Below are positions 4,814-64,000 of a stretch of 64,000 bases of DNA, piece by piece. The translations under genes and the position numbers were made by a program. Origin of the DNA: Leucoraja ocellata (lineage: Eukaryota). The number at the start of each line of letters is the position of its first letter. Position 1 is the stretch's first letter. The DNA lies in contig JAWMAR010000098.1 in NCBI GenBank assembly GCA_036785375.1, positions 4,154,001 to 4,218,000 on the forward strand. Direction: 5' to 3'. The notes beneath the pieces were generated by a model, which was not told where the DNA came from, did not search any database, and saw only the letters and a list, made by a program, of their open reading frames with translations.

Positions 4814-5366
4814 TGCGTACAGTTTTGGTCTCCTAATCTGAGGAAGGACATTTTTGCCATAGAGGGAGTACAGAGAAGGTTCACCAGACTGATTCCTGGG
4901 ATGTCAGGACTTTCATATGAAGAAAGACTGGATAGACTCGGCTTGTACTCACTAGAATTTAGAAGATTGAGGGGGGATCTTATAGAAACTTACAAAATTC
5001 TTAAGGGGTTGAACAGGCTAAATGCAAGAAGATTGTTCCCGATGTTGGGGAAGTCCAGAACAAGGGGTCACAGTTTAAGGATAAAGGGGAAATCTTTTAG
5101 GACTGAGATGAGAAAAACATTTTTTACACAGAGAGTGGTGAATCTCTGGAATTCTCTGCCACAGAATGTAGTTGAGGCCAGTTCATTGGCTATATTTAAG
5201 AGGGAGTTAGATGTGGCCCTCGTGGCTAAAGGGATCAGGGGGTATTGAGAGAAAGCAGGTACAGGACACTGAGTTGGATGATCAGCCATGATCATATTGA
5301 ATGGCGGTGCAGGCTAGAAGGGCCGAATGGCCTACTCCTGCACCTATTTTCTATGTTTCTATGTTT
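4814..5366 (+). mobile_element. Young 5'-truncated CR1/HER1-type LINE
   Basis: ORF 4901-5248 (SYEERLDRLGLYSLEFRRLRGDLIETYKI...FFTQRVVNLWNSLP); 3' UTR ends in (TTTCTATG)n. Confidence 0.97.
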
Positions 5367-5613
5367 CCTGTTCCGCTGGAAGTAGTGTGGATAGGTGGAG
5401 GAGGTTGGAGATGTGGCTAAAGGTTGGTGGGGGGTGGCAGGCCCATGAGACAACATTCAGGAGATGTTTTGCAGCATGCATTTTGGAGTCACTTTGATTC
5501 TATCATGTCCTTGATTTATTTCTAGACTCCGCTACCTGACCACATGATGACATGCACAGCTCAAATTTGCATTGCAAGCATGACATCTGATGAATTCTAG
5601 CGTGTGGGCTCCA

Positions 5614-5878
5614 GGAACTGCAGATGCTAGTTTAAATAAAAAAACACAAAATGTTGCAGTAATTCAGCAGGTCAGGCAGCATTCCTGGAGGACAGAGATA
5701 GGTGACGTTTCGTTTCAGAAACCATCTTCAGACTGATTGTAGTAGTGGGAGAAAGCTGTAAAAGAGAGGTTGGGGTGGGTCAACACACAACACTGCAGTA
5801 ACTCAGCGGGAAAGGCAGTATGTCAGGAGAGTAGTAACATTTCTGTTTGAGACCCTTCTTCAGTTCTCCAGATTCCAG
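5614..5878 (-). mobile_element. Penelope-terminus-like repeat, two partial units, with hammerhead-like motif
   Basis: acacaaaatg..agtaa.tcagc..g.caggcagcat...ggtgacgtttcg...cttcagac unit that recurs through the window. Confidence 0.7.
5700..5733 (-). ncRNA. Minimal type-I hammerhead ribozyme-like motif (best-preserved core in the window)
   Basis: Minus strand reads GT-CTGAAGA-TG-GTTT-CTG-AAAC-GAAA-CG-TC-AC: CUGANGA, stem II, GAAA, palindromic mini stem III and a GUC site. Confidence 0.6.
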
Positions 5879-5984: not shown

Positions 5985-6102
5985 GGGGAGATCGCAGGAG
6001 AATGGGGCTAGGAAGGAGAGATAGATCTGCCATGATTGAATGGCGGAGTAGACTTGATGGGCCAAATGGCCTAATTCTACTCCTATCACATGACCTTATG
6101 AC
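5985..6102 (+). mobile_element. CR1 3' tail
   Basis: gccatgattgaatggcggagtagacttgatgggccaaatggcctaattct, same subfamily as 30428-30862 and 62822-63180. Confidence 0.85.
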
Positions 6103-6621
6103 TATTCCAACCCATCTCCCTGTCCTTCTATGTTTATCCATCTGTCCTGCCACCACACTCCTTCCAAATAACAAACCATTTGCCCCAGGGTTGAAGCTCC
6201 CTCCTGCCAAGCAGCTTCAAATTCTCAAATGTGGTCGTTAGAAAAGGCCGCATCGTGTAGAGGTCTAGAAAGAACTAATTTCCTGTTGATTATTGATAAG
6301 TCCACTGTGAATTGTTATTGCAGAATAATAATTGCCATCTATCATTGTGCAAAGATTTATTTAACCAGCTGAGCACAACATATTAACTGTGACTCAAACA
6401 TTTAAAATTCTCCATGTGTAATGTTCACTGTGAGAACACATCTGCATTTAAATAGTCCATTAGCGCTTTTGCAAGTAGTTTACAGATTTCCCACACTAGA
6501 TTCTACTCTATCCAGCTATATTCTCCATATACAACACCATGACCTTCTCCAGGCCCTGATTCTGGCCCAGATTCCAGGCTCAGACTTTACAGCGCATTGT
6601 TATCCAACAGCCATGACTTGA

Positions 6622-6930
6622 TAGACACAAAATGCCGGAGTAACTCAATGGGTCAGGCAGCATCTCTGGAGAAAATGGATATGTGATGCTTCGGGTCGGG
6701 TCGCTTCTTCAGACTGTTTGTAGAATTTAGAGTTGGGGGAAAAATAGTGGAAGTGAAGAAAGAAAAATAAGGACAAATTAAAGCCGGCAATAGATGACCT
6801 CAGGCAAGGAGGTTCCCTGATAGGCTATTTGTTGGCTGGTGATGATGTGAGACCAAGAGAAATATATAGATGTGAACTGTGGAACCAATTAACAAACTTT
6901 TACTGGACAAGGGGGGGGGGGAACGAGGGG
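6622..6930 (-). mobile_element. Penelope-terminus-like repeat with purine-rich extension, running into the gap
   Basis: agacacaaaatgccggagtaactc...cttcttcagact unit with a degenerate hammerhead core. Confidence 0.7.
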
Positions 6931-7263: not shown

Positions 7264-7548
7264 TTACAGCGCTTTCATCTCCCGAGACCCGAGTTCAATC
7301 CCGACTACAGGTGCTGTCTGTACAGAGTTCGCACGTTCTCCCCGTGACCACATGGGTTTACTCCAAGATCTTTGGTTTCCACCCACACTCCAAAGACGTA
7401 CAGATATGTAGGTTAATTGGCTTGGTGTATGTGTAATTGTCCCTAGTGTGTGCAGGATGGTGTTAATGTGTGTGGGGATTGATGGTCGGTGCGGACTTGG
7501 TGGGCCGAAGGGCCTGTTTCCGCGCTGTTTCACTAAACTAAACCTAAA
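7264..7548 (+). mobile_element. HE1/V-SINE-type tRNA-derived SINE lacking its 5' end
   Basis: B-box gagttcaatcc, V-domain-like core tgggttt.ctcc..ggtttcc.cccacactccaaagac, CR1-like tail and (TAAAC)n. Confidence 0.93.
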
Positions 7549-9901: not shown

Positions 9902-10013
9902 AGGGTCTCGACCTGAAACTTCACCCATTCTTTCTCTCCAGAGATGCTGCCTGTCCCACTGAGTTACTCCAGCATTTTGTGTTGTATGCAAGATTCCAGC
10001 ACCTGCAGTTCCT
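9902..10013 (+). mobile_element. Penelope-terminus-like repeat, partial
   Basis: agggtctcgacctgaaacttcacccattc...gagttactccagcattttgtgt; lacks the CTGAAGA segment. Confidence 0.75.
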
Positions 10014-10825
10014 TTTATCTACTCAATAACTAGGCATTACCAAACACATTTTGCCAGAAATTGCACAATTTAAAGAGGCAACACTCAAGCCGCCTTCTGA
10101 CCTCCTAACCAACATCACATGTGTCATTACTACCTAGAATATGGACATCAGGATCACTATCAGCTTTCCGGGTGTAGGATTATTCCAGGTTGCCACACCA
10201 TAAGTTGTTGCACACTGCTACATTAGGGAAGTTAGACAAACTGCATACTTAAGGAGTGGAGATTTCATCTACTTTGCCTGCAGCCCAGGGGCATAGTTAG
10301 ATAGCCAGGTATTTTCTTGCATTTCAGGTTTCTTGAAAGTACATGCATTTGAGATTGTACTCATATCCATAGGGAAACTTCCTCAGCAACCAGGAGTGTA
10401 ACCGCATCAACCAAGTGCATGCCTACTGTAGACATTAATCTTTACTACTTCTCAAGGACTCCTTGACCCGCCCATCCTTCATCACTTCCCTAACTGCAGC
10501 ATTTATTTATTATGTTGCAACATTCCTCAGTAGTTGGAAGAGTGTTGCTTGTAGAGTGGTCTCCCCCTTCAAAACCTGAACACATAAAATCATACATGCT
10601 GTACTCCATGTTGAGACAGTAAGAATTTGCAGAACATCAGCTGAGATGGCCACACTGAAACTAAAAATGTGATTATCAACATAACATTGGCATCACAGAG
10701 AAAAGTCAACAAAGCTTCTCTGTCATCCTCAGAACTGCAATTCTCACATTCTGTGTGCTTTTTACAACCAGGATTGAGATGGTCCACAATTCTGTACAGG
10801 CAACAATTGAACATCATAGAAGATA

Positions 10826-10916
10826 TACACAAAATGCTGGAGTAACTCAGCGAGATAGGCAGCATCTCTGGAGGGAAGGAATGGGTGAGGTTTCGGGTCA
10901 AGACCCTTCTTCAGAC
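10826..10916 (-). mobile_element. Penelope-terminus-like repeat with hammerhead-like motif
   Basis: Minus strand 10916-10883: GT-CTGAAGA-A-GGGTC-TT-GACCC-GAAA-CC-TC-ACCC. Confidence 0.8.
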
Positions 10917-12780: not shown

Positions 12781-13682
12781 CCCCAGTGACCTGGTTCAAT
12801 TCTGACCTCAGCTGCTGTCCATGTAGAGTTGTATGGATTTGAGTATAGGAGCAGGGAGGTTCTACTGCAATCTTCCTGCATCTACTGCAGTTGTTCTAAA
12901 GACATTCTTGCCGTAGAGGGAGTACAGAGAAGGTTCACCAGATTGATTCCTGGGATATCAGGACTTTCATATGAAGAAAGACTGGATAGACTCGGCTTGT
13001 ACTCGCTAGAATTTAGAAGATTGAGGGGGGATCTTATAGAAACTTACAAAATTCTTAAGGGGTTGGACAGGCTAGATACAGGAAGATTGTTCCTGATGTT
13101 GGAGAAGTCCAGAAGAAGGGGTCATAGTTTAAGGATAAGAGGGAAATCTTTTAGGACCGAGATGAGAAAAACATTTTTCACACAGAGAGTGGTGAATCTC
13201 TGGAATTCTCTGCCACATAAGGTAGTTGAGGCCAGTTCATTGGCTATATTTAAGAGGGAGTTGGCTCTTGTGGCTAAAGGTATCAGGGGGTATGGAGAGA
13301 AGGCAGGTACAGGATACCGAGTTGGATGATCAGCCATGATCAAATTGAATGGCGGTACAGGCTCGAAGGGCCGAATGGCCTACTCCTGCACCTATTTTCT
13401 ATGTTTCTATGTTTCTATGTACTTTCTCTCTGTGGCTGTAAAGGGTTTCCCATATGTGCTCTGGTTTCCTCCAACATCCCAAAGGTGTGCCGGTTGGTTG
13501 GTCAATTGTCCATTGTCAATTGTCCCTTTGTATACAAATGGGTGGAAGAATCCAGCAGGATTGACGGGAAGGTGGGAGGAATAGGTTTACAGGGAAAATT
13601 ATTGGGAGAATGGGATTGTTATGATGATCCGGCACAGATGCAATGGGTCAAAATGGCCTTTAATTGTTGTACGGAAGTATGG
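12777..13682 (+). mobile_element. Old V-SINE-type element split by a CR1 insertion
   Basis: Head (ctggttcaattctgacctc..tgctgtc) at 12777-12834; body and tail (gggtttcc..gctctggtttcctccaacatcccaaag) resume at 13421. Confidence 0.75.
12835..13420 (+). mobile_element. Young CR1 fragment with an internal deletion and filler
   Basis: ORF 12829-13329 encodes the CR1 RT C-terminus; tail (TTTCTATG)n. Confidence 0.96.
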
Positions 13683-16900: not shown

Positions 16901-19896
16901 TTCATGAACAGGGGATTACATTAAGTTTATTAATAGAAAAGATTCATTTTGTATACAGATTTGAATCTCTAAACCATTGCAAATTGCAAAGTTGAAGCTT
17001 TCTATAAATTAAGTGTGTGCAGAGGAGATGATATTCAATAAAATACTTTAACCCCAGATCCAAAAATCAAATATACTTGACATTTTTCAACAATACAAAT
17101 GCAGTGTTCACATCTGCAATAGCAAATAAAAGGGTTAAAACATTTTAAAGCAAATCATTTCTGCCAATGCACTAGCCTCCATCTCTCTTCAACCCATGTT
17201 TTATCACTGAAAATGTTTCCATAGTTTTACCAACATAAAACTTGTTTTGATCATCAGAATATAAATTTGATATTTTTAGAATTATTTTTTCTGCAAATTA
17301 TTCTTACTACTTTTTAAATTCTATCTCCTTGTAAAACCAGATCATTAAACAATCTGAAACTATCATAAATGATATAGTTCTACATTGTTTTTAACACCTA
17401 TTGCATGTGAATCCTATGAATTATGAAACTTCAGTATTTTATCCTGAATTTTATTTCCCTATTCAATAATTTCAGTGATGTCAGACCACAGACATCATTA
17501 AAACCTACATTTTCAGTAATTTTTCTACCTATTTTTAAACTCAGACAGATCATGCCTCTATTGAGAAGAAAACAATTTGAACCTCAGAATTCCAGTGCAT
17601 TAAATTAAGCTACCGAATTTCCTAAAGATAGTTCTTAAATCGACAACAAAATAGACTGAACGTGGGTACTAAACTGTATGTGGTGAGGTCGGGGATTCTC
17701 TATTTCAAAGGATGTTGTGGGGGAGTGGAGTCAGGAGCAAGGATTCATTTACCCACGAAAATATTTTGGAAAAATAACCCATAAAATACTTCCTCACAGT
17801 ACTAAATACTCTATTGATTGCTTCCCAAGTAAACGAGTAACAATTTATTTTTTTAACCCACTCATGAGGGGTAAATAAATAATTAAATGTGTTCTCACAT
17901 ATCTCAGTTCCACAACTATATACACATCTACATGTAACATTGTGAGCAACTACTTTCCACCGTGTGTCATCTGTTAAGGCTTCTTTTTAAATGAAGGATA
18001 GGAAATGTATAAAATGTAAGGTAGGATTAAACTAATTTGATTCTTTTCACTTTTAACATGCAGTCTGCAACAGTATTTAATAAATTCTGTTTCAATAACT
18101 ATGTTTAAAGTTAATTTAGAACCAAGCTGGCACGCAGCCATAATCTGTTTCTTATATAATTTGCGTTATGATACAATGATATTCAATGCACACAAATTAA
18201 ATAACTATAGCTCCTAGAACAATTCCAATCTTAATGCAGAAAAAGAATGACGCAGGCTATTTCATATTTTCACGCAAGTAATTTGCTATCTTTAATAGTA
18301 ACCAATCCCTTGATTACAGTTAGTAATAAGATTTTCCTACAAAGTTTTTCTCAATGTTTTAAAGCTTGTTCCCAGTTTAACATAATTTGATATTGTTCTA
18401 TTATTTGAATGATATTGCAAAAACTAAAATATAATTTCAAACTAATCAGAAATAATATGTAATAAAATTGGTTCCATTGATTTTTATAAAATCTTTGGCA
18501 ATATTGATTTTTCTATTCAAAATTTTTTTTCGTGAATTTCTGAAGCTTAATTTTCATGATTTTACTGCCATGCAATTAGTTGAGTAACAAGTAGGCAAAT
18601 TTAGGAAATATATTAGGTTTTGCTGAACTGTATATGAAAATGTTTGCAATAAGGTTGTAAATGACAACAAAGATTCAGGTGGCAGGGAATTTTGTGCAGT
18701 AATATTTACTACTTAACTATCATTGGGATGATAAATTGTGAAGAAAAAGTTAAAAAAAAACAGTATTGTCTAGCAATTCATCATGTCAGTAGCACTCATA
18801 TTATATTTGTATCAGAGCATATTCTGCATCCGAAATTCATTCTATTGACAATAATGTCTGTAGACTGTGTTAGGTCCACCCGACTGCGATGAAATTTCCA
18901 ATTATCCATTTGTTGCAAAGTTAAAAGAAAAGTTGCATTCTGAAGGGCCAGCTTTAGTGATAGAAAAAGTGACGAGTCATCAGCTTTCTGCTTTAATGAA
19001 CCATCTACCTCCACATCGACTAGTGAGTGCAATTAAAAGCAGAAACCTGGAACTTGCTCTGATTTGTCCTGCTCATTCACGGGCCTTGTTAAACCGATAC
19101 CTTGCCAATAGACTTCCCATTCAAAGTGCACAAGGGCATGAATTTGCAACATTCACATACTAGTTTCTCACTGAAGTGACAGCCAAACAATTTATCTGGC
19201 CCTGAACACTAAAAGGTTTTTGCATACCCATTTCTTCAAATGAACAAAACAGTATTTCTTTTGGTTTTTGCTTTCTATTTCTTTTAATCTTTTATTTTTG
19301 GAATATAATTTCACATTGAATAAAGTATTCTTAAGGGATTAAAGGTAAATTAAAATGACAAAGACGGACAGGCATTCTGATCATACAAGTTTGTCTTCAT
19401 TTTACATGAAGTTTGGATAAATATTGAGTAATTTTATGTTTTGAGCATATTATTCAAAAATACATTTCCTTTTGAATATGTGTTCAGTTGCTAAAAGCCT
19501 AAGAAGGAGCATTGATTGTAATCTAATTCATTCTTCCTGCCTTGGACTCTGATTGGCACCTGAGGATCCTTTAAGGCCGTTAGGATATGAAGTAAAGGTT
19601 TAGCCTCTCCTGTTCCAACATCATTGATGTGCAAAAGCACAACAACAAAAAAGGACTTTAAAAAGGGAGCAAATTGATGTCAATGAATGGACAGGAATTC
19701 CGGGGGAAGTTTTAGGTATTATAAAAGTTATACGTGGTTTTTTAGCATTAATTACAAATCTAAACCATTTCCTATTTTATTATATTTCAGCGCTAGTCCA
19801 TAACTAATGGCCAGCAATTTATTTTAACATTTTATGCACCGCAAGGCAATCAGAAATGCAAGATTCAGGCAAACACTAACAGATTACAAAAAAAAA

Positions 19897-19988
19897 GATG
19901 CAAAGTGCTGGAGTAATTCAATGGGTCAGGCAGTATCTGTGGAGAACATGGATAGGTGATGTTTTGTGTCAGGACACTTCGTCAGACT
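19897..19988 (-). mobile_element. Penelope-terminus-like repeat with a variant hammerhead stem II
   Basis: Minus strand GT-CTGACGA-A-GTGTC-CT-GACAC-AAAA-CA-TC-ACCT. Confidence 0.75.
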
Positions 19989-20274
19989 CAATGTATATAC
20001 GGGTTTGATAACAAAATTGGGATTGTTACTGCGTGAGCGGAGTGTTGTGCGTTCAGAGAGAGGGAGATTGAATTGGGTAAGGGGGGGGTGGAGACATTAA
20101 GATGTGTCATGCCGCGTTGGCAGTAGGAAATAAAAAAGTCCAGGGAGGATAGAAGACCGGCAGGGGGAGTTATGAAGATAGAAGAGCTTGGCACTGGGAG
20201 GTGAGAAATTTCTTTCATCAACATGAGTGGAGATACTTTTGAAGCAGGATGCAGTTTTGGACTCCAAATTTGAT

Positions 20275-23095: not shown

Positions 23096-23362
23096 GTTTA
23101 GATTAGTTTGGTTCAGAGATACAGCGCAGAAGCAGGCCCTTCAGCCCACCGAATCAGCACCGACCAGTGATCCCTGCACATTAACACTATCCAACACACA
23201 CTAAGGACAATTTACATTTATACCAAGCCAATTAACCTGCAAACCTGTACGTCTTTGGATTGTGAGAGGAAATCGACGATCTTGGAGAAAACCCACGCAG
23301 TCACGGGGAGAACTTACAAACTCCATACAGACAGCACCCGTAGTCAGGATCGAACCCAGGTC
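23096..23362 (-). mobile_element. HE1/V-SINE-type SINE
   Basis: Reverse complement of the SINE body, from the tail to the B-box (ggatcgaaccc). Confidence 0.93.
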
Positions 23363-24062: not shown

Positions 24063-24369
24063 GGGTGGCAAGGTGGCGCAGCGGTAGAGTTGCTGCTTTC
24101 CAGCGCCAGAGAGCTGGGTTCAATCCTGACTACGGGTGCTGTCTGTACGGAGTTTTTACATTCTCCCTGTGACCACGTGGGTTTTCACCAGGTGCTCCGG
24201 TTTCCTCCCAAAGTTCCAAAGACGTGCAACTTGGTAGGTTAATTGGCTTTGATAAAATTGTAATTCGTCTCTAGTGTGTAGGAGAGTGCGAGCGCGCGGG
24301 GATCGCTGGTCGGTGGGGCTGATGGGCATGTTTCCACGCTGTATCTCTAAACTAAACTAAACTGAACTA
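24063..24369 (+). mobile_element. Full-length HE1/V-SINE-type SINE
   Basis: A-box tggcgcagcgg, B-box ggttcaatcc, V-domain core and (TAAAC)n tail. Confidence 0.96.
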
Positions 24370-28217: not shown

Positions 28218-28277
28218 CCATTTATTTTGGTTTCTGCTTCAGATTTGTCCTTTGCCATTCCAGCTATATAGAGAATG

Positions 28278-28486
28278 TCACAAAGTGCTGGAGTAACTCA
28301 ACATGTCAGGTAGCATCTCTGGGGTACATGGATATGTGTGTTTTCATTTGAGATGAGACTGAAGAACGGTCTCGAACCGAAACTTCATCTATCCCAGTTC
28401 TCCAGAGATGCTGCCCGACCTGCCGAGTTACTCCTGCACTTATAATATTTTTTGTGTATTAACCAGCATCTGCAGTTCTTTGTTTC
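28278..28486. mobile_element. Fold-back pair of Penelope-terminus-like repeats
   Basis: aagtgctggagtaactc... and ...gagttactcctgcactt form inverted arms; plus-strand CTGAAGA..GAAA at 28359-28382. Confidence 0.78.
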
Positions 28487-29180
28487 TATATAGAGAGTGA
28501 GAATGTCCAAACTTTCCAAAGTACTTCCTGGACAATATTTCAGAGGCATCGTAACCATGGCTCTACATAAAAAAATATTATTGAAATTACTTTATGAATT
28601 CTTCTCGTCGTAAATAATATATTTGGAAAAACATCCTACCACAGGTGGGTTGATTTGAAAAAAATATTACAATCAATGCTTCTTAGGATTTTAGCAACTG
28701 ATCACATTTTCGAAAGGATTTTTTTCCCTGAATAATATGATTAAAACATAAAATTACTCAACATTTATCCAAACCATGTAAAATGAAGACAAATTTGCAC
28801 GATTATTCTGATCAGAATATCTGTCAATTTTTGTATTTTTTCTTTACCTTATCCCATAAGAGAATATGACCATATTAAATGATATGCAAAATTGAAGAAC
28901 ACCAAATAAATGTCTGTATAACAAACTATAGTTCAATCATTCATTCTGTTTTCAGCTGTTATAAAATGGTGCATCACTTGATACTGTGTTATATAGACAC
29001 CTCAGAAAACAACTGGAATTCATTGAATGGTGGAAAATATTTATATTTTATTAAAATTATTTACTCAAACAAAAGTTTTGATGAAGTTATCGGCTAATTA
29101 AAATGAATATGATTTGTATATGTTTGAAATAAGATGCTATTTACTTGCTTATATATAATTTGCAGAAATTTATCCATATA

Positions 29181-29732
29181 CAATAGACAATAGACAATAG
29201 GTGCAGGAGTAGGCCATTCGGCCCTTCGAGCCAGCCATTCACTGTGATCATGGCTGATCATCCCAAATCAGTACCTCGTTCATGCCTTCTCCCCATATCC
29301 CCTGACTCCACTATCTTTTAGAGCCCTATCTAGCTCTCTCTTGAAAGTATCCAGAGAACCGGCCTCCACCGCCCTCTGAGGCAGAGAATTCCACAGACTC
29401 ACAACTTTCTGTGAGAAAAAGTGTTTCCTCGTCTCCGTTCTAAATGGCTTACCCCTCATTCGTAAACTGTGGCCCCTGATTCTGGACTCCCCCAACATCG
29501 GGAACATGTTTCCTGCCTCTAGCATGTCCAAACCCTTAACAATCTTATATGTTTCAATAAGATCCCCTCTCATCCTTCTAAACTCCAGAGTGTACAAGCC
29601 CAGCCGCTCCATTCTCTCAGCATATGACAGTCCCGCCACCCCGTAAATTAACCTTGTAAACCTATGCTGCACTCCCTCAATAGCAAGAATATCCTTCCTC
29701 AAATTAAGGGACCAAAACTGCACACAATACTC
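29181..29732 (-). mobile_element. CR1 fragment
   Basis: ORF 29280-29723 encodes the CR1 RT C-terminus; tail (GTCTATT)n. Confidence 0.96.
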
Positions 29733-30427
29733 TAGTGTGTGCTCAAATACTCAAAGTACTCAAGCCTTTTTAATAATTATAAAGTTGATATGAAATTCTT
29801 CAGCAGATCCACTATCATTGTGAAATATTTTGTTACCTCAAATCTGTTTTCAAAACACTAAGCAGATGTTAAAATTTCATATTTCTTCAGCTAGTTACAT
29901 TTAACAAATTTACTTCAATGGAGATCGGGAAAATGTGCAAATTTAATATTGGACAATTTGTCAGAAAAGTAATGCAGTTTGTAATTGCCTCAAATAATAA
30001 AAAGCCTAACTCATCTGCAAATAAAACTTGCTTTAAAATAACAAACATATGTTATCAATGCAACTATAATCTTAACCCAATCAAGTGTTTTACTTTGGGA
30101 TATTCAAATGGAAAGATAAATGATTTCGCTCTAAGGGGAAAATCTTCATCTTTTCTCACCAGCACTGAAGGCATGTTCAGGTATCAGCCACACACTGGAC
30201 ATATCCTCATCCTCAGTCAACCCTGGAGCCAAATGGATAACCAGTGACCATAACTCTTGCATCAGTTTTAGAACTTGTGACCAAAGGCAAATTTCTTCTT
30301 GTGAATTATTTTCTGACGCTTGTTTTTTATTTTGTTATATTACAGTTGTTGTCACTGCCAACGTTATCTATATCATCTGCAGAGGGAAAAGCTGGTGAGT
30401 TGCTCCTTACATCCACTACATATCATT

Positions 30428-31568: not shown

Positions 31569-31681
31569 GAATCATACAGCATAGAAACAAGACCCTTGGC
31601 ACAACTCATCCACATTGATGTCACATCAAGCTAGTCCCATTTATTCACGTTTGGCCCAGATCCCAGTAAACCTTTCTTATT
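31569..31681 (-). mobile_element. Short CR1 3' tail
   Basis: catacagcatagaaacaagaccctt...ctagtcccattt..tttggccc. Confidence 0.75.
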
Positions 31682-31897
31682 GAAGGTAGAAACAAAATGC
31701 TGGAGTAACTCAGCGGGACAGGCAGCATCTCTGGAGAGAAGGAATGGGTGACGTTTCAGGTCGAGGCCCTTCTTCGGACGTTCGAGTTTGAAGAAGGGTC
31801 TTCCGACTCTGGTCTTGACCCGAAAGGTCAACCATTGCTTCTCTCCAGAGATGCTGCCTGTCCTGCTGAGTTACTCCTGCATTTTGTCTTTACCTTC
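31682..31897. mobile_element. Fold-back pair of Penelope-terminus-like repeats (~216-bp imperfect palindrome)
   Basis: gaaggtagaaacaaaatgctggagtaactcagc... pairs with ...gctgagttactcctgcattttgtctttaccttc; each arm has a degenerate hammerhead core. Confidence 0.88.
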
Positions 31898-32171
31898 CTA
31901 TTCATACACCTGAACAAATATCATTTAGGGTGTATGAGAAAGTAATATGCAAAGTCTACAATTTCAGAAAATGGGAGGAAGCCCTTTAAGAGGAGCATTT
32001 ATTTTCTAATACAACACACTAACGTGTTCATCTTTGCCACACATCTTTGAAGATGGCATCTTCAACACATATTAGCACTTCCATGAAAAATAGTTAACAC
32101 GAGCTATGCATGGTGATTGCAAAGTTTAACAAGAAATAACCGTAAAAAGTATCGTCAACAGAATTATATGT

Positions 32172-61245: not shown

Positions 61246-62031
61246 AAACATAGAAAATAGGTGCAGGAGTAGGCCATTCGGCCCTTCGAGCCTGCACCGC
61301 ATTTCAATATGATCATGGCTGATCATCCAACTCAGTATCCTGTACCTGCCTTCTCTCCATACCCCCTGATCCCTTTAGCCACAAGGACCACATCTAACTC
61401 CCTCTTAAATATAGCCAATGAACTGGCCTCAACTACTTTCTGTGGCAGAGAATTCCACAGATTCACCACTCTCTGTGTGAAAAAAAAAAGTATCATCTCG
61501 GTCTTAAAAGACTTCCCCCTTATCCTTAAACTGTGACCCCTTGTTCTGAACTTCCCCAACATCGGGAACAATCTTCCTGCATCTAGCCTGTCCAACCCCT
61601 TAAGAATTTTGTAAGTTTCTCTAAGATCCCCCCTCAATCTTCTAAATTCTAGCGAGTACAAGCAGAGTCTATCCAGTCTTTCTTCATATGAAAGTCCTGC
61701 CATCCCAGGAATTAATCTGGTGAACTTTCTCTGTACTCCCTCTCTGGCAAGAATGTCTTTCCTCAGATTAGGAGACCAAAACTGTACGCAATACTCCAGA
61801 TGTGGTCTCACCAAGACCCTGTACAACTGCAGTAGAACCTCCCTGCTCCTATACTCAAATCCTTTTGCTATGAATGCTAACATACCATTCGCTTTCTTCA
61901 CTGCCTGCTGCACCTGCATGCCTACTTTCAATGACTGGTGTACCATGACACCCAGGTCTCGTTGCATCTCCCCTTTTCCTAATCGGCCACCATTCAGATA
62001 ACAGCCTACTTTCCTGTTCTTGCCACCAAAG
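61246..62031 (-). mobile_element. Longest young CR1/HER1-type fragment; intact 211-aa RT C-terminal frame
   Basis: ORF 61332-61967 (QRDLGV..VKKANGML..LYRVLVRPHLEYCVQFWSP..RRLRGDL..RVVNLWNSLP). Confidence 0.98.
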
Positions 62032-62385
62032 TCCTGTCCGATTCACCTCTACCCCATTGTAGACGCTGCCTATGGAGCTGTTACACTACCAAGCTGAGAG
62101 CTATATTCTGCAATCTGGGTTTTTTTAAGTATTGAATGAATTAATCGGGATGAAACCCATTCAGTCCCAGTGAGCTTCTTATTTTGACCTTAAGTTTCCA
62201 GAGTTGTCAATGTAGATGACCCAATTGTCTTCTTTAACTATTCCACTTATTCTAAAACATTTCCCATTGATTAGAAGATATAAAAAAGTACTCCCACTAT
62301 TTTAACAAGGTGAGGAAAAATAATGGCAAAAAATAGAAAGGCAGAGTATTTTAAAATGGTGGGGGATTGGAACCTGTGTGTTCTT

Positions 62386-62696
62386 AGTTTTGTTTTGTTT
62401 TAGAGACACAACGCGGAAACAGGCCATTCAGCCCACCGGGTCCACACCGACCAATTATCCCCAAACAATAACACTATCCTACACACATACTAGAGACAGT
62501 TTACACATACACCAAGCCAATTAACCTACAAGCCTGTACGTCTTTGGAGTGTGGGAGGAAACCGAAGATCTCAGAGAAAACTCACGCGGTCACGTGGAGA
62601 AAATACAAACTCCGCACCGACATCACCCGGGGACGTGATCGAACCCGGGTCTCCGGCACTGCAAGCGCTATAAAGCAGCAACTCTCCCGCTGCACC
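62386..62696 (-). mobile_element. Near full-length HE1/V-SINE-type SINE
   Basis: Reverse complement of the consensus seen at 24063 and 63819. Confidence 0.94.
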
Positions 62697-63189: not shown

Positions 63190-63810
63190 TGGAATATAGT
63201 ATCCAATTTGTTCTCCACACCTAGAGATGGATACATTTCTGATCGAGCGAAATGAAGGTGTGCTAGATTGGATACCTGAGATGTGGCAAGTATCTTCTGA
63301 GAGATTAGGGAGATAGAACCCATAGAGTTAAGAAAATGAGAGGTAATCTCCTTAAAACATACAAAGGCTTGACAGTGCAGATACAGGTATGATGTTTCCT
63401 GGATAGGTGACATTTCGGGTCGGAACCCATTTTCCTTGGGAAGGGGAGTTAAAGTATTTAGCAATCGGGAGAATTCCTCTATCCATTCCCATACTGACCT
63501 TTCTATCCTGAGCTTCCTCCAGTGTCAGAGTGAGGCCACATGAAAATGGGAGAAACAGCACACCATATTTCACTTGGGTAGCTTACAACTCAGCAGGTTG
63601 AAGTATCCTGACTGAAGAATCTACTAGTCAGGACCACAGACTTAAAACAAAGACATCCAGGACTGATATGAGAAGAATGTTTTTCACCCAGATGGGAGTG
63701 AGCATTTAAATCCCCTCTACCCCAGTCAGCAGTGATGGTCCAGACAAAATATATTTGTTCCAAATATGGGTAGATTTTAATCATTAAGGTGTGTAGGGTT
63801 AGTGCAGGGT
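63190..63810 (+). mobile_element. Very old CR1 fragment interrupted by a Penelope piece
   Basis: agaaaatgagaggtaatctc..aaacatacaa before 63400 and gactgatatgagaagaatgtttttcacccaga after 63610. Confidence 0.6.
63401..63606. mobile_element. Rearranged Penelope-like fragment (GIY-YIG C-terminus plus partial terminal repeat)
   Basis: Plus strand HSHTDLSILSFLQCQSEAT*KWEKQHTIFHLGSLQ; minus strand LPIAKYFNSPS; the ggataggtgacatttcgggtc terminus motif is adjacent. Confidence 0.75.
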
Positions 63811-63818
63811 ATTCGAGC

Positions 63819-64000
63819 GGGCGGCACGGTGGCGCAGCGGTAGAGTTGCTGCCTTACAGCGAATGCAGCGTCGGAGACCCGGGTTCGATCTCGACTACGG
63901 GTGCTGTCTGTACGGAGTTTGTACGTTCTCCTCGTGACCTGCATGGGTTTTCTCCGAGATCTTCGGTTTCCTCCTACACTCCAAAGACATACAGGTTTGT
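63819..64000 (+). mobile_element. Young HE1/V-SINE-type SINE, cut by the window end
   Basis: A-box tggcgcagcgg (63830-63840), B-box ggttcgatc, CpGs intact. Confidence 0.96.

What the first reader, a model, noticed from the sequence alone, without database searches (positions are those of the whole stretch)
5700..5733. Dispersed repeat family carrying a minimal hammerhead ribozyme motif
Seen: at least eight loci (about 5.7, 6.7, 9.9, 10.9, 19.97, 28.37, 31.77 and 63.41 kb) share all or part of GT-CTGA(A/C)GA-A-GGGTC-NN-GACCC-GAAA-CG-TC-AC, followed by an ~60-nt conserved tail. Established: CUGANGA / stem II / GAAA / UH is the hammerhead core, and Penelope-like elements carry minimal type-I hammerheads with a palindromic stem III in their terminal repeats, thought to act as dimers. 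Inference: these ~90-nt units are Penelope termini spreading as short non-autonomous, retrozyme-like elements. This copy is the only one here with all core nucleotides intact.
Basis: partly seen in the sequence, partly recalled or inferred. Interest (0 to 1): 0.7.

Follow-up and report, generated by a model that had tools for sequence, protein, structure and literature searches.

The report
Penelope retrotransposon ends with decayed hammerheads
This is the clipped end piece of a Penelope-type jumping gene that is extremely common in this genome and carries a known kind of tiny RNA motif predicted to cut itself, but the copy flagged here has a broken stem and is likely dead, so the site is ordinary.

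Summary
The repeat is real: 11 copies in the window, 83,194 core-intact copies in the genome against 0 in the control, about 1.7 million by extrapolation. It is the pseudo-LTR and ORF start of a Penelope-like element (PLE), likely Neptune clade. It lies just behind the GIY-YIG endonuclease in 28 of 30 loci and in front of the ORF in a near-full-length partial tandem. Short copies show PLE footprints: 9-16 bp target-site duplications, inverted pairs, a tail on one arm only. The family has the published minimal hammerhead. The flagged copy keeps the core and ACGU palindrome but has a broken stem II; no window copy passes a full descriptor, and it is not the only core-intact copy. Ends do not pile up at the cleavage site, so 'retrozyme' is not supported. 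Open: many copies start 0-8 nt before the core; elsewhere, 66-nt arrays keep only the hammerhead's substrate half (22,706 junctions). The scan already reported this family on other DNA of this genome.

The parts
5700..5733 (-). Minimal type-I hammerhead motif: stem I GU 5733-5732, CUGAAGA 5731-5725, extra nucleotide 5724, eroded stem II 5723-5712, GAAA 5711-5708, palindrome ACGU 5708-5705, predicted cut between 5704 and 5703
   Evidence: stem II broken at pair 2, fails descriptor
5641..5699 (-). Conserved ~60-nt segment: predicted hairpin and likely start of the element's ORF (ATG at 5682-5680), ending at the first common 3' end of insertions
   Evidence: ORF runs on from this segment in L207; hairpin 84% paired; 3' ends at +86 to +97 in 18 of 27 TSD-defined copies
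5612..5640 (-). Optional PLE 'tail' (about 35 nt) up to the second common 3' end
   Evidence: 3' ends at +124 to +130 in 7 of 27 TSD-defined copies; alignment to own subfamily
5736..5782 (-). About 47 nt of the 3' UTR of the old subfamily; the copy is 5'-truncated here
   Evidence: the same UTR follows the endonuclease ORF on the same strand in 6 of 30 loci
5779..5864 (-). Second, more decayed copy directly upstream (direct pair); core letters present, stem II and palindrome broken
   Evidence: (26% from nearest subfamily)
6616..6885 (-). Copy with about 170 nt of 3' UTR; A15.1 changed
9902..10014 (+). Copy cut inside the hammerhead (no CUGANGA), with tail
10816..10916 (-). Younger solo copy starting at the hammerhead edge; core and stem II intact, palindrome broken (G16.2 changed)
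   Evidence: (9% from subfamily)
19890..19989 (-). Solo copy starting at the hammerhead edge; G12 changed
28264..28496 (.). Inverted pair (28275-28485), tail on the + arm only, flanked by an 11-bp target-site duplication (28264-28274 and 28486-28496)
31680..31900 (.). Inverted pair; U4 changed on the - arm, C3 changed and an internal duplication on the + arm; no TSD or tail found
63400..63607 (.). Partial hammerhead copy (63400-63434, -) beside inverted remnants of the PLE endonuclease ORF (63437-63468, -; 63472-63607, +)
   Evidence: tblastn E 6e-5 and blastn to endonuclease-bearing loci

Best explanation
The motif is a decayed copy of the terminal repeat of a Penelope-like retrotransposon, likely of the Neptune clade, whose family carries a minimal hammerhead predicted to cut only as a dimer, and this copy is likely inactive. 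Shown: the unit follows the RT-zinc-linker-GIY-YIG ORF, precedes it in a partial tandem, and occurs as short inserts with target-site duplications, inverted pairs and a one-sided tail. Inferred: the element's protein nicks both target strands, starts reverse transcription at two internal sites about 95 and 130 nt past the core, and mostly stops early, very often 0-8 nt in front of the core. The template would be RNA that is not cut at the hammerhead. Why copying stops at that edge is not shown. My preferred guess (about 40%) is that the element's transcript starts there, at an Initiator-like TCAGT, so priming at the 5' copy of the repeat runs off the RNA end. After insertion the copies appear to decay neutrally.
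For: Unit on the same strand about 80-120 nt behind the endonuclease in 28 of 30 loci (my count). RT motifs KPADKG, QGxAMG and YIDD, a CX4CX2C linker and LIYCIRC..YIGET. Pfam RVT_1 above its cut-off for one of four fragments. 148 homologues at E<=1e-20 among proteins of 787-2245 aa; most listed ones are 800-950 aa with RVT_1, some also with GIY-YIG. Partial tandem in L207. The flagged copy's own subfamily UTR is linked to the endonuclease in 6 of 30 loci, 4 independent. An endonuclease remnant lies in the window. TSD in 27 of 158 isolated copies against 2.3% of shuffled pairs and in 22 of 59 inverted pairs against 2.2%. Tail on one arm in 40 of 57 pairs, on both in 1, on neither in 16. 152 of 400 copies lack the hammerhead end, 46 lack the hairpin end. 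Starts at the cut site 10 of 309, no more than the 2.4 per position around it. CpG sites 62-84% conserved against 84-96% elsewhere. The same footprints are published (PMC3846280, PMC11167929, 10.1101/2021.04.23.441226).
Against: GIY-YIG scores stay below Pfam's cut-off (13.8-21 bits against 22.6). No uninterrupted full ORF was found among the loci examined (longest PLE frame 578 codons), so current activity is not shown. The clade rests on the linker motif, shared with Nematis; no tree with named references was built. 104 of 400 copies start at the hammerhead edge with no element sequence upstream, more than simple random truncation predicts. Their 5' joints spread over about 6 nt with no extra G, which does not confirm a capped start. 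The core is slightly better kept than the tail (88-96% against 84-94%), though copies were selected for matching the core end.
Confidence: 0.88

Rival explanations
1. The ~95/130-nt units are a dedicated non-autonomous, retrozyme-like element transcribed from short masters, processed by its hammerhead and mobilised in trans.
For: 104 of 400 copies are the bare unit; 21 of 27 TSD-defined inserts begin 0-8 nt before the core; very high copy number; tandem 66-nt derivatives exist elsewhere in the genome; vertebrate retrozymes are proposed to derive from PLE repeats (10.64898/2026.07.22.740005).
Against: No sequence of its own: bare and UTR-bearing copies carry the same hammerhead and tail variants. 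Graded series of upstream lengths, 32 to 300 nt. No enrichment of ends at the cut site in DNA and no read pile-up in three RNA runs of relatives. Published retrozymes are tandem 170-400-nt units with canonical hammerheads (PMC7229834). Only 36 of 400 copies are downstream members of direct tandems.
Confidence: 0.08
2. The 5.7-kb copy is a working or host-co-opted ribozyme, perhaps as a dimer with the direct copy about 130 nt upstream.
For: It keeps every core letter and the ACGU palindrome; a weak alternative stem II of four pairs with a two-base insert can be drawn; a second copy lies at 5779-5864 in the same orientation.
Against: Stem II has no predicted stability in the family register; the copy is 15% from its subfamily; the neighbour has lost stem II and the palindrome; folding z-score +0.8 for the motif; even intact minimal hammerheads cut poorly in vitro (PMC4209133).
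Confidence: 0.03
3. The repeat is a tRNA-derived SINE read on the opposite strand, and the hammerhead is a chance reading of its B-box region.
For: By eye the opposite strand has A-box-like and B-box-like stretches about 50 nt apart (consensus recalled, no call).
Against: Truncation polarity is the wrong way round (152 against 46 of 400); the sense strand is continuous with the PLE ORF; ARAGORN finds nothing in the window.
Confidence: 0.01

Closest known systems
Minimal hammerheads of metazoan PLE pseudo-LTRs, including Xena, Poseidon and Neptune of fishes (Cervera and de la Pena 2014, PMC4209133; read: abstract, results, discussion, start of methods; supplements not read)
   Same: CUGANGA, one extra base before stem II, G10.1-C11.1, GAAA, palindromic 15.2-16.2 with no loop III; mostly dispersed single motifs attributed to truncated PLEs.
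   Different: 83,194 core-intact copies by my pattern against about 4,000 (coelacanth) and 9,000 (Xenopus) by their descriptor, a different method; stem I here is only 2 bp and stem II 4 bp; no cartilaginous fish is named in the parts read.
Insertion units of endonuclease-bearing PLEs (PMC3846280 and 10.1101/2021.04.23.441226, passages read; PMC11167929, main text read)
   Same: Partial tandems, inverted 5' copy, 30-40-nt tail on one end, 8-10-bp TSD, repeat overlapping the ORF start, two internal reverse-transcription starts, no reads ending at the cut site.
   Different: TSDs here run 9-16 bp; most copies are only 95-130 nt; strong 5' stop zone at the front edge of the hammerhead, not described in the passages read.
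Metazoan non-LTR retrozymes (PMC7229834, passages read; 10.64898/2026.07.22.740005, main text read, supplements closed)
   Same: Type-I hammerhead, link to PLE repeats, found in a chondrichthyan in the 2026 preprint.
   Different: Retrozymes are tandem units each with a complete hammerhead; the window copies are single or inverted, and the genome's 66-nt arrays lack CUGANGA and stem II in every internal unit shown.

Membership tests
Endonuclease-bearing Penelope-like element | [quoted passage not shown] | tested here: met
   RT motifs and RVT_1 above cut-off in one fragment; endonuclease motif, Pfam below cut-off; 148 full-length homologues
Endonuclease-bearing Penelope-like element | Pseudo-LTR from a partial tandem, overlapping the ORF start | tested here: met
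   L207: truncated endonuclease end, UTR, unit, then ORF
Endonuclease-bearing Penelope-like element | Inverted 5' copy, one-sided 30-40-nt tail, short TSD | tested here: met
   138 of 400 copies in inverted pairs; tail on one arm in 40 of 57 pairs, TSD in 22 of 59
Neptune clade | CX2-5CxxC zinc-finger linker between RT and endonuclease (shared with Nematis) | tested here: met
   CNRRKCYTC and variants; definition from 10.1101/2021.04.23.441226
Neptune clade | RT phylogeny with named references | not tested
   no named Neptune or Nematis reference sequences were returned by the tools
Minimal type-I hammerhead (family level) | Core CUGANGA / GAAA / UH with stems I and II and a palindromic 15.2-16.2 | tested here: met
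   all three main subfamily majorities; 83,194 genome matches against 0
Minimal type-I hammerhead (family level) | Compensatory covariation in the stems | tested here: inconclusive
   85% of cells paired against 31-50% for slid partners, but no measure exceeds shuffles (69-258 of 500); subfamily changes are U-A to U-G
Minimal type-I hammerhead (5.7-kb copy) | Stable stem II | tested here: not met
   G-A mismatch at pair 2, 0 kcal/mol; fails descriptor
Minimal type-I hammerhead | Self-cleavage as a dimer | not testable with these tools
   needs an in vitro assay; ordinary RNA-seq of relatives shows no end pile-up, a weak test
Non-LTR retrozyme | Tandem units each with a complete hammerhead | tested here: not met
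   0 descriptor hits in the window; 36 of 400 in direct tandems; 66-nt array units lack the core
Non-LTR retrozyme | Discrete linear or circular RNA monomers bounded by the cut site | not testable with these tools
   no small-RNA, RNase R or cyclic-phosphate library was laid; DNA ends show no cut-site bias

The most novel reading that the evidence does not exclude
Outside the window this family has spawned 66-nt tandem arrays (22,706 exact junctions) whose units keep only the substrate half of the hammerhead (GAAACGUC, cut site, stem I strand) plus the reverse-transcription start hairpin. They would be core-less retrozymes: cut in trans by the tens of thousands of intact hammerheads through the shared ACGU palindrome, and pasted by the PLE protein, often into resident repeats. 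Together with the sharp front-edge stop zone, this would give a dense natural record of how PLE RNA is primed and where it begins.
Probability: 0.1. Interest if true: 0.65.

Novelty: new member of a known kind. Interest (0 to 1): 0.25.

Why it matters
The kind is known, so the locus itself matters little. The family is useful as material: more than 80,000 core-intact minimal hammerheads and an estimated 4% of the genome give large numbers for open questions on PLE replication, namely whether the hammerhead ever cuts the template (ends say mostly not), where the RNA starts, and how two-armed insertions form. If the half-hammerhead arrays are cut in trans, they would be a ribozyme parasite without its own catalytic core.

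Tried and rejected
Rfam scan of the window and of an intact copy: no hammerhead hit, uninformative for a motif without stem III. Monomer folding: no hammerhead fold or significant z-score for six of eight sequences; the two at z about -2.4 are a tail-bearing copy and an array dimer. First pair count used misplaced brackets and was redone. Intron idea (pyrimidine tract and CAG just before the core, as in the Drosophila element): 37 pattern matches, the 10 examined were UTR ends of another subfamily, not spliced copies; no GT..AG joint among the 15 of 98 joints shown; several TSD-defined inserts keep the CAG and UTR bases; not supported. Cap-derived extra G at 5' joints: not seen. RNA look-up: no RNA holder listed; raw reads of two related organisms cover the unit on both strands with no pile-up at the cut site, which fragmented poly(A) libraries could hardly show. 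PDB sequence search: nothing. tRNA/SINE reading rejected. Lunse et al. 2017 was not held; only its citation in PMC6765202 was seen. Five literature searches gave no paper on this family in cartilaginous fish or on half-hammerhead arrays; subscription papers, Repbase/Dfam and the closed supplements of the 2026 preprint were not seen and may hold it. No host gene was looked for beyond an ORF list.

Full report
Observation. On the minus strand 5733-5700 reads as a type-I minimal hammerhead: GU, CUGAAGA, one extra base, 12 nt for stem II, GAAA, CG, UC, then ACC. A profile built from eight window copies finds 11 members at E<0.05: a direct pair at 5633-5864, inverted pairs at 28.3 and 31.7 kb, single copies at 6.6, 9.9, 10.9 and 19.9 kb and a fragment at 63.4 kb. 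The window lies in a 3.44-Gb animal genome, G000; that it is a cartilaginous fish is my recollection from its other repeats and the scan's notes, not tested. One 31-nt variant occurs 19,489 times and a looser core-intact pattern 83,194 times, both against 0 for the reversed pattern. In 80 stretches of 10 kb chosen by round coordinates on contigs over 1.4 Mb there are 400 hits against 0 on reversed sequence, covering 4.2% of bases; extrapolated, about 1.7 million copies.

The flagged copy. Four of 11 window copies keep all invariant core letters; only this one also keeps the ACGU palindrome. Its stem II has a G-A mismatch at the second pair and no predicted stability, whereas the three subfamily majorities give -3.4 to -3.7 kcal/mol. 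My descriptor finds no complete minimal hammerhead in the window, 24 in the 800-kb sample and none in its reversed control. The copy belongs to the oldest subfamily (mean divergence 22%), is 15% from its majority, carries about 47 nt of upstream UTR and the optional tail.

What it is. Upstream of several intact cores lies a GIY-YIG-type frame. Searching the genome with it gives 150 scored matches out of 162,112 candidates; of the 30 loci fetched, 28 have the unit on the same strand about 80-120 nt after the endonuclease (my count). Further upstream are the PLE RT motifs and a CX4CX2C linker. Pfam RVT_1 passes its cut-off for one of four fragments; GIY-YIG stays below cut-off. The 148 homologues at E<=1e-20 among longer proteins are mostly 800-950-aa single ORFs with RVT_1, some also with GIY-YIG. 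Locus L207 shows the classic partial tandem: a truncated endonuclease end, UTR, the unit, then the ORF, whose likely first ATG lies in the unit's hairpin. The flagged copy's own UTR is followed upstream by the endonuclease on the same strand in 6 of 30 loci, 4 of them independent, and the window holds an endonuclease remnant at 63437-63607. The linker marks Neptune or Nematis (10.1101/2021.04.23.441226, passages); Neptune is inferred, without a tree.

Insertion footprints. Of 400 sampled copies, 138 are in inverted pairs, 104 are single and start at the hammerhead edge, 67 are cut inside the unit, 55 carry upstream element sequence (32 to 300 nt, the limit searched) and 36 are downstream members of direct tandems. 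152 lack the hammerhead end and 46 the hairpin end, the polarity of target-primed copying from the hammerhead-sense RNA. Exact direct repeats of 9 bp or more flank 27 of 158 isolated copies (shuffled pairs 2.3%); their 3' ends fall at +86 to +97 (18) and +124 to +130 (7), two elsewhere; 21 of 27 start 0-8 nt before the core. Among inverted pairs 22 of 59 have such a repeat (control 2.2%), and the tail is on one arm in 40 of 57, both in 1, neither in 16. The window pair at 28275-28485 has an 11-bp duplication and a one-sided tail. These match published PLE features (PMC3846280 passages; PMC11167929 main text).

The hammerhead. All three main subfamily majorities keep the core, the extra base, G10.1-C11.1 and the palindrome described in PMC4209133. 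On 61 copies (the 20 closest to each majority plus the flagged one) stems I, II and the downstream hairpin are 82%, 88% and 84% paired, against 31-50% overall for slid partners, but no covariation measure beats the shuffles; subfamily differences are U-A to U-G. CpG sites decay fastest, as expected without selection. Copy starts at the cut site number 10 of 309, about 2 per position like their surroundings, against 158 at the front edge. Raw RNA reads from two related organisms cover the unit on both strands with no place where many molecules begin or end; this is a weak test. It agrees with the anole element, where uncut RNA is the main template and the hammerhead needs the protein.

How it likely works. 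Shown: anatomy, linkage and footprints. Inferred from the published PLE model: the protein nicks both strands, primes at two internal sites that define the tail, and one or two short cDNAs are joined to the target or to each other. Unexplained: the stop zone at the front edge. All UTR types seen end in CAGT (81 of 113 pyrimidine-rich upstreams end in TCAGT), an Initiator-like word (consensus recalled; an Initiator-like TCACT is noted in a rotifer repeat). A transcript starting there and primed at its 5' repeat would give 95- and 130-nt inserts without any separate master. Joints spread over about 6 nt and show no extra G, and in Drosophila the start lies 46 bp upstream of the intron that abuts the hammerhead, so this is a guess. 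The splice-acceptor alternative found no support.

Side finding. A 66-nt tandem unit beginning at GAAACGUC, first seen in L060, has 22,706 exact junctions in the genome. There are 3 arrays in the 800-kb sample, none in the window, and 50 segments (some overlapping) of 1-10 junctions in 200 kb picked for being array-rich; 10 of the 50 start with a recognisable hammerhead head, and these heads differ from each other as resident repeats of several subfamilies would. Many arrays end at the family's first 3' end site, and some alternate with a longer block holding an inverted piece of another subfamily. RNA reads of a relative lie across internal units, and the two small pile-ups are not at cut sites. 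A plain reading is a tandem duplication that multiplied the priming site; trans-cleavage is possible on paper but rests on a 2-bp stem I and a 4-bp stem III.

Verdict. New member of a known kind: PLE pseudo-LTR with minimal hammerhead; the flagged copy is likely dead; not a retrozyme by the tested criteria. The scan's earlier notes on this genome reach the same reading; I opened them after my own tests and count them as no support. The eight notes listed for a word look-up on the arrays did not describe them (86 fit, 8 shown). Interest 0.25.

Noticed in passing
L060:250-730; L115-L134; L225-L244 (G000:C1 about 20.1-20.7 Mb): 66-nt tandem arrays of the substrate half of the hammerhead plus hairpin, 22,706 exact junctions genome-wide, regionally clustered, often joined to resident repeats, sometimes alternating with a longer block; none in the window.
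   Followed up: partly
family-wide, e.g. window 5732-5737 and L207:1406-1411: Otherwise unrelated subfamily UTRs all end in a pyrimidine tract and CAGT just before the core; only GT is explained by stem I. Could be an Initiator or a splice acceptor.
   Followed up: partly
window 5641-5690 and L207:1458-1530: The hairpin's 5' arm is also complementary to a stretch of the optional tail, so two alternative pairings are predicted, possibly tied to the two priming sites.
   Followed up: no
window 12790-13329 (+), 29280-29750 (-), 61332-62042 (-); also 5276-5363 and about 6000-6100: Fragments of a LINE reverse transcriptase C-terminus and its 3' end, CR1-like by my recollection.
   Followed up: no
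window 7276-7542, 23112-23362, 24073-24361, 62399-62656, 63829-64000: Another dispersed repeat of about 250-300 nt shared with loci L010 and L030, likely a SINE; not identified.
   Followed up: no
L067:780-1790: A short stretch reading like a protein-kinase N-terminal exon followed by a long GC-rich tandem repeat, upstream of a truncated PLE.
   Followed up: no
L004/L005, L001/L007, L016/L017, L028/L029 and other pairs: Many fetched loci come as near-identical pairs on one contig, suggesting duplicated segments or retained haplotypes; genome counts may be inflated by this.
   Followed up: no
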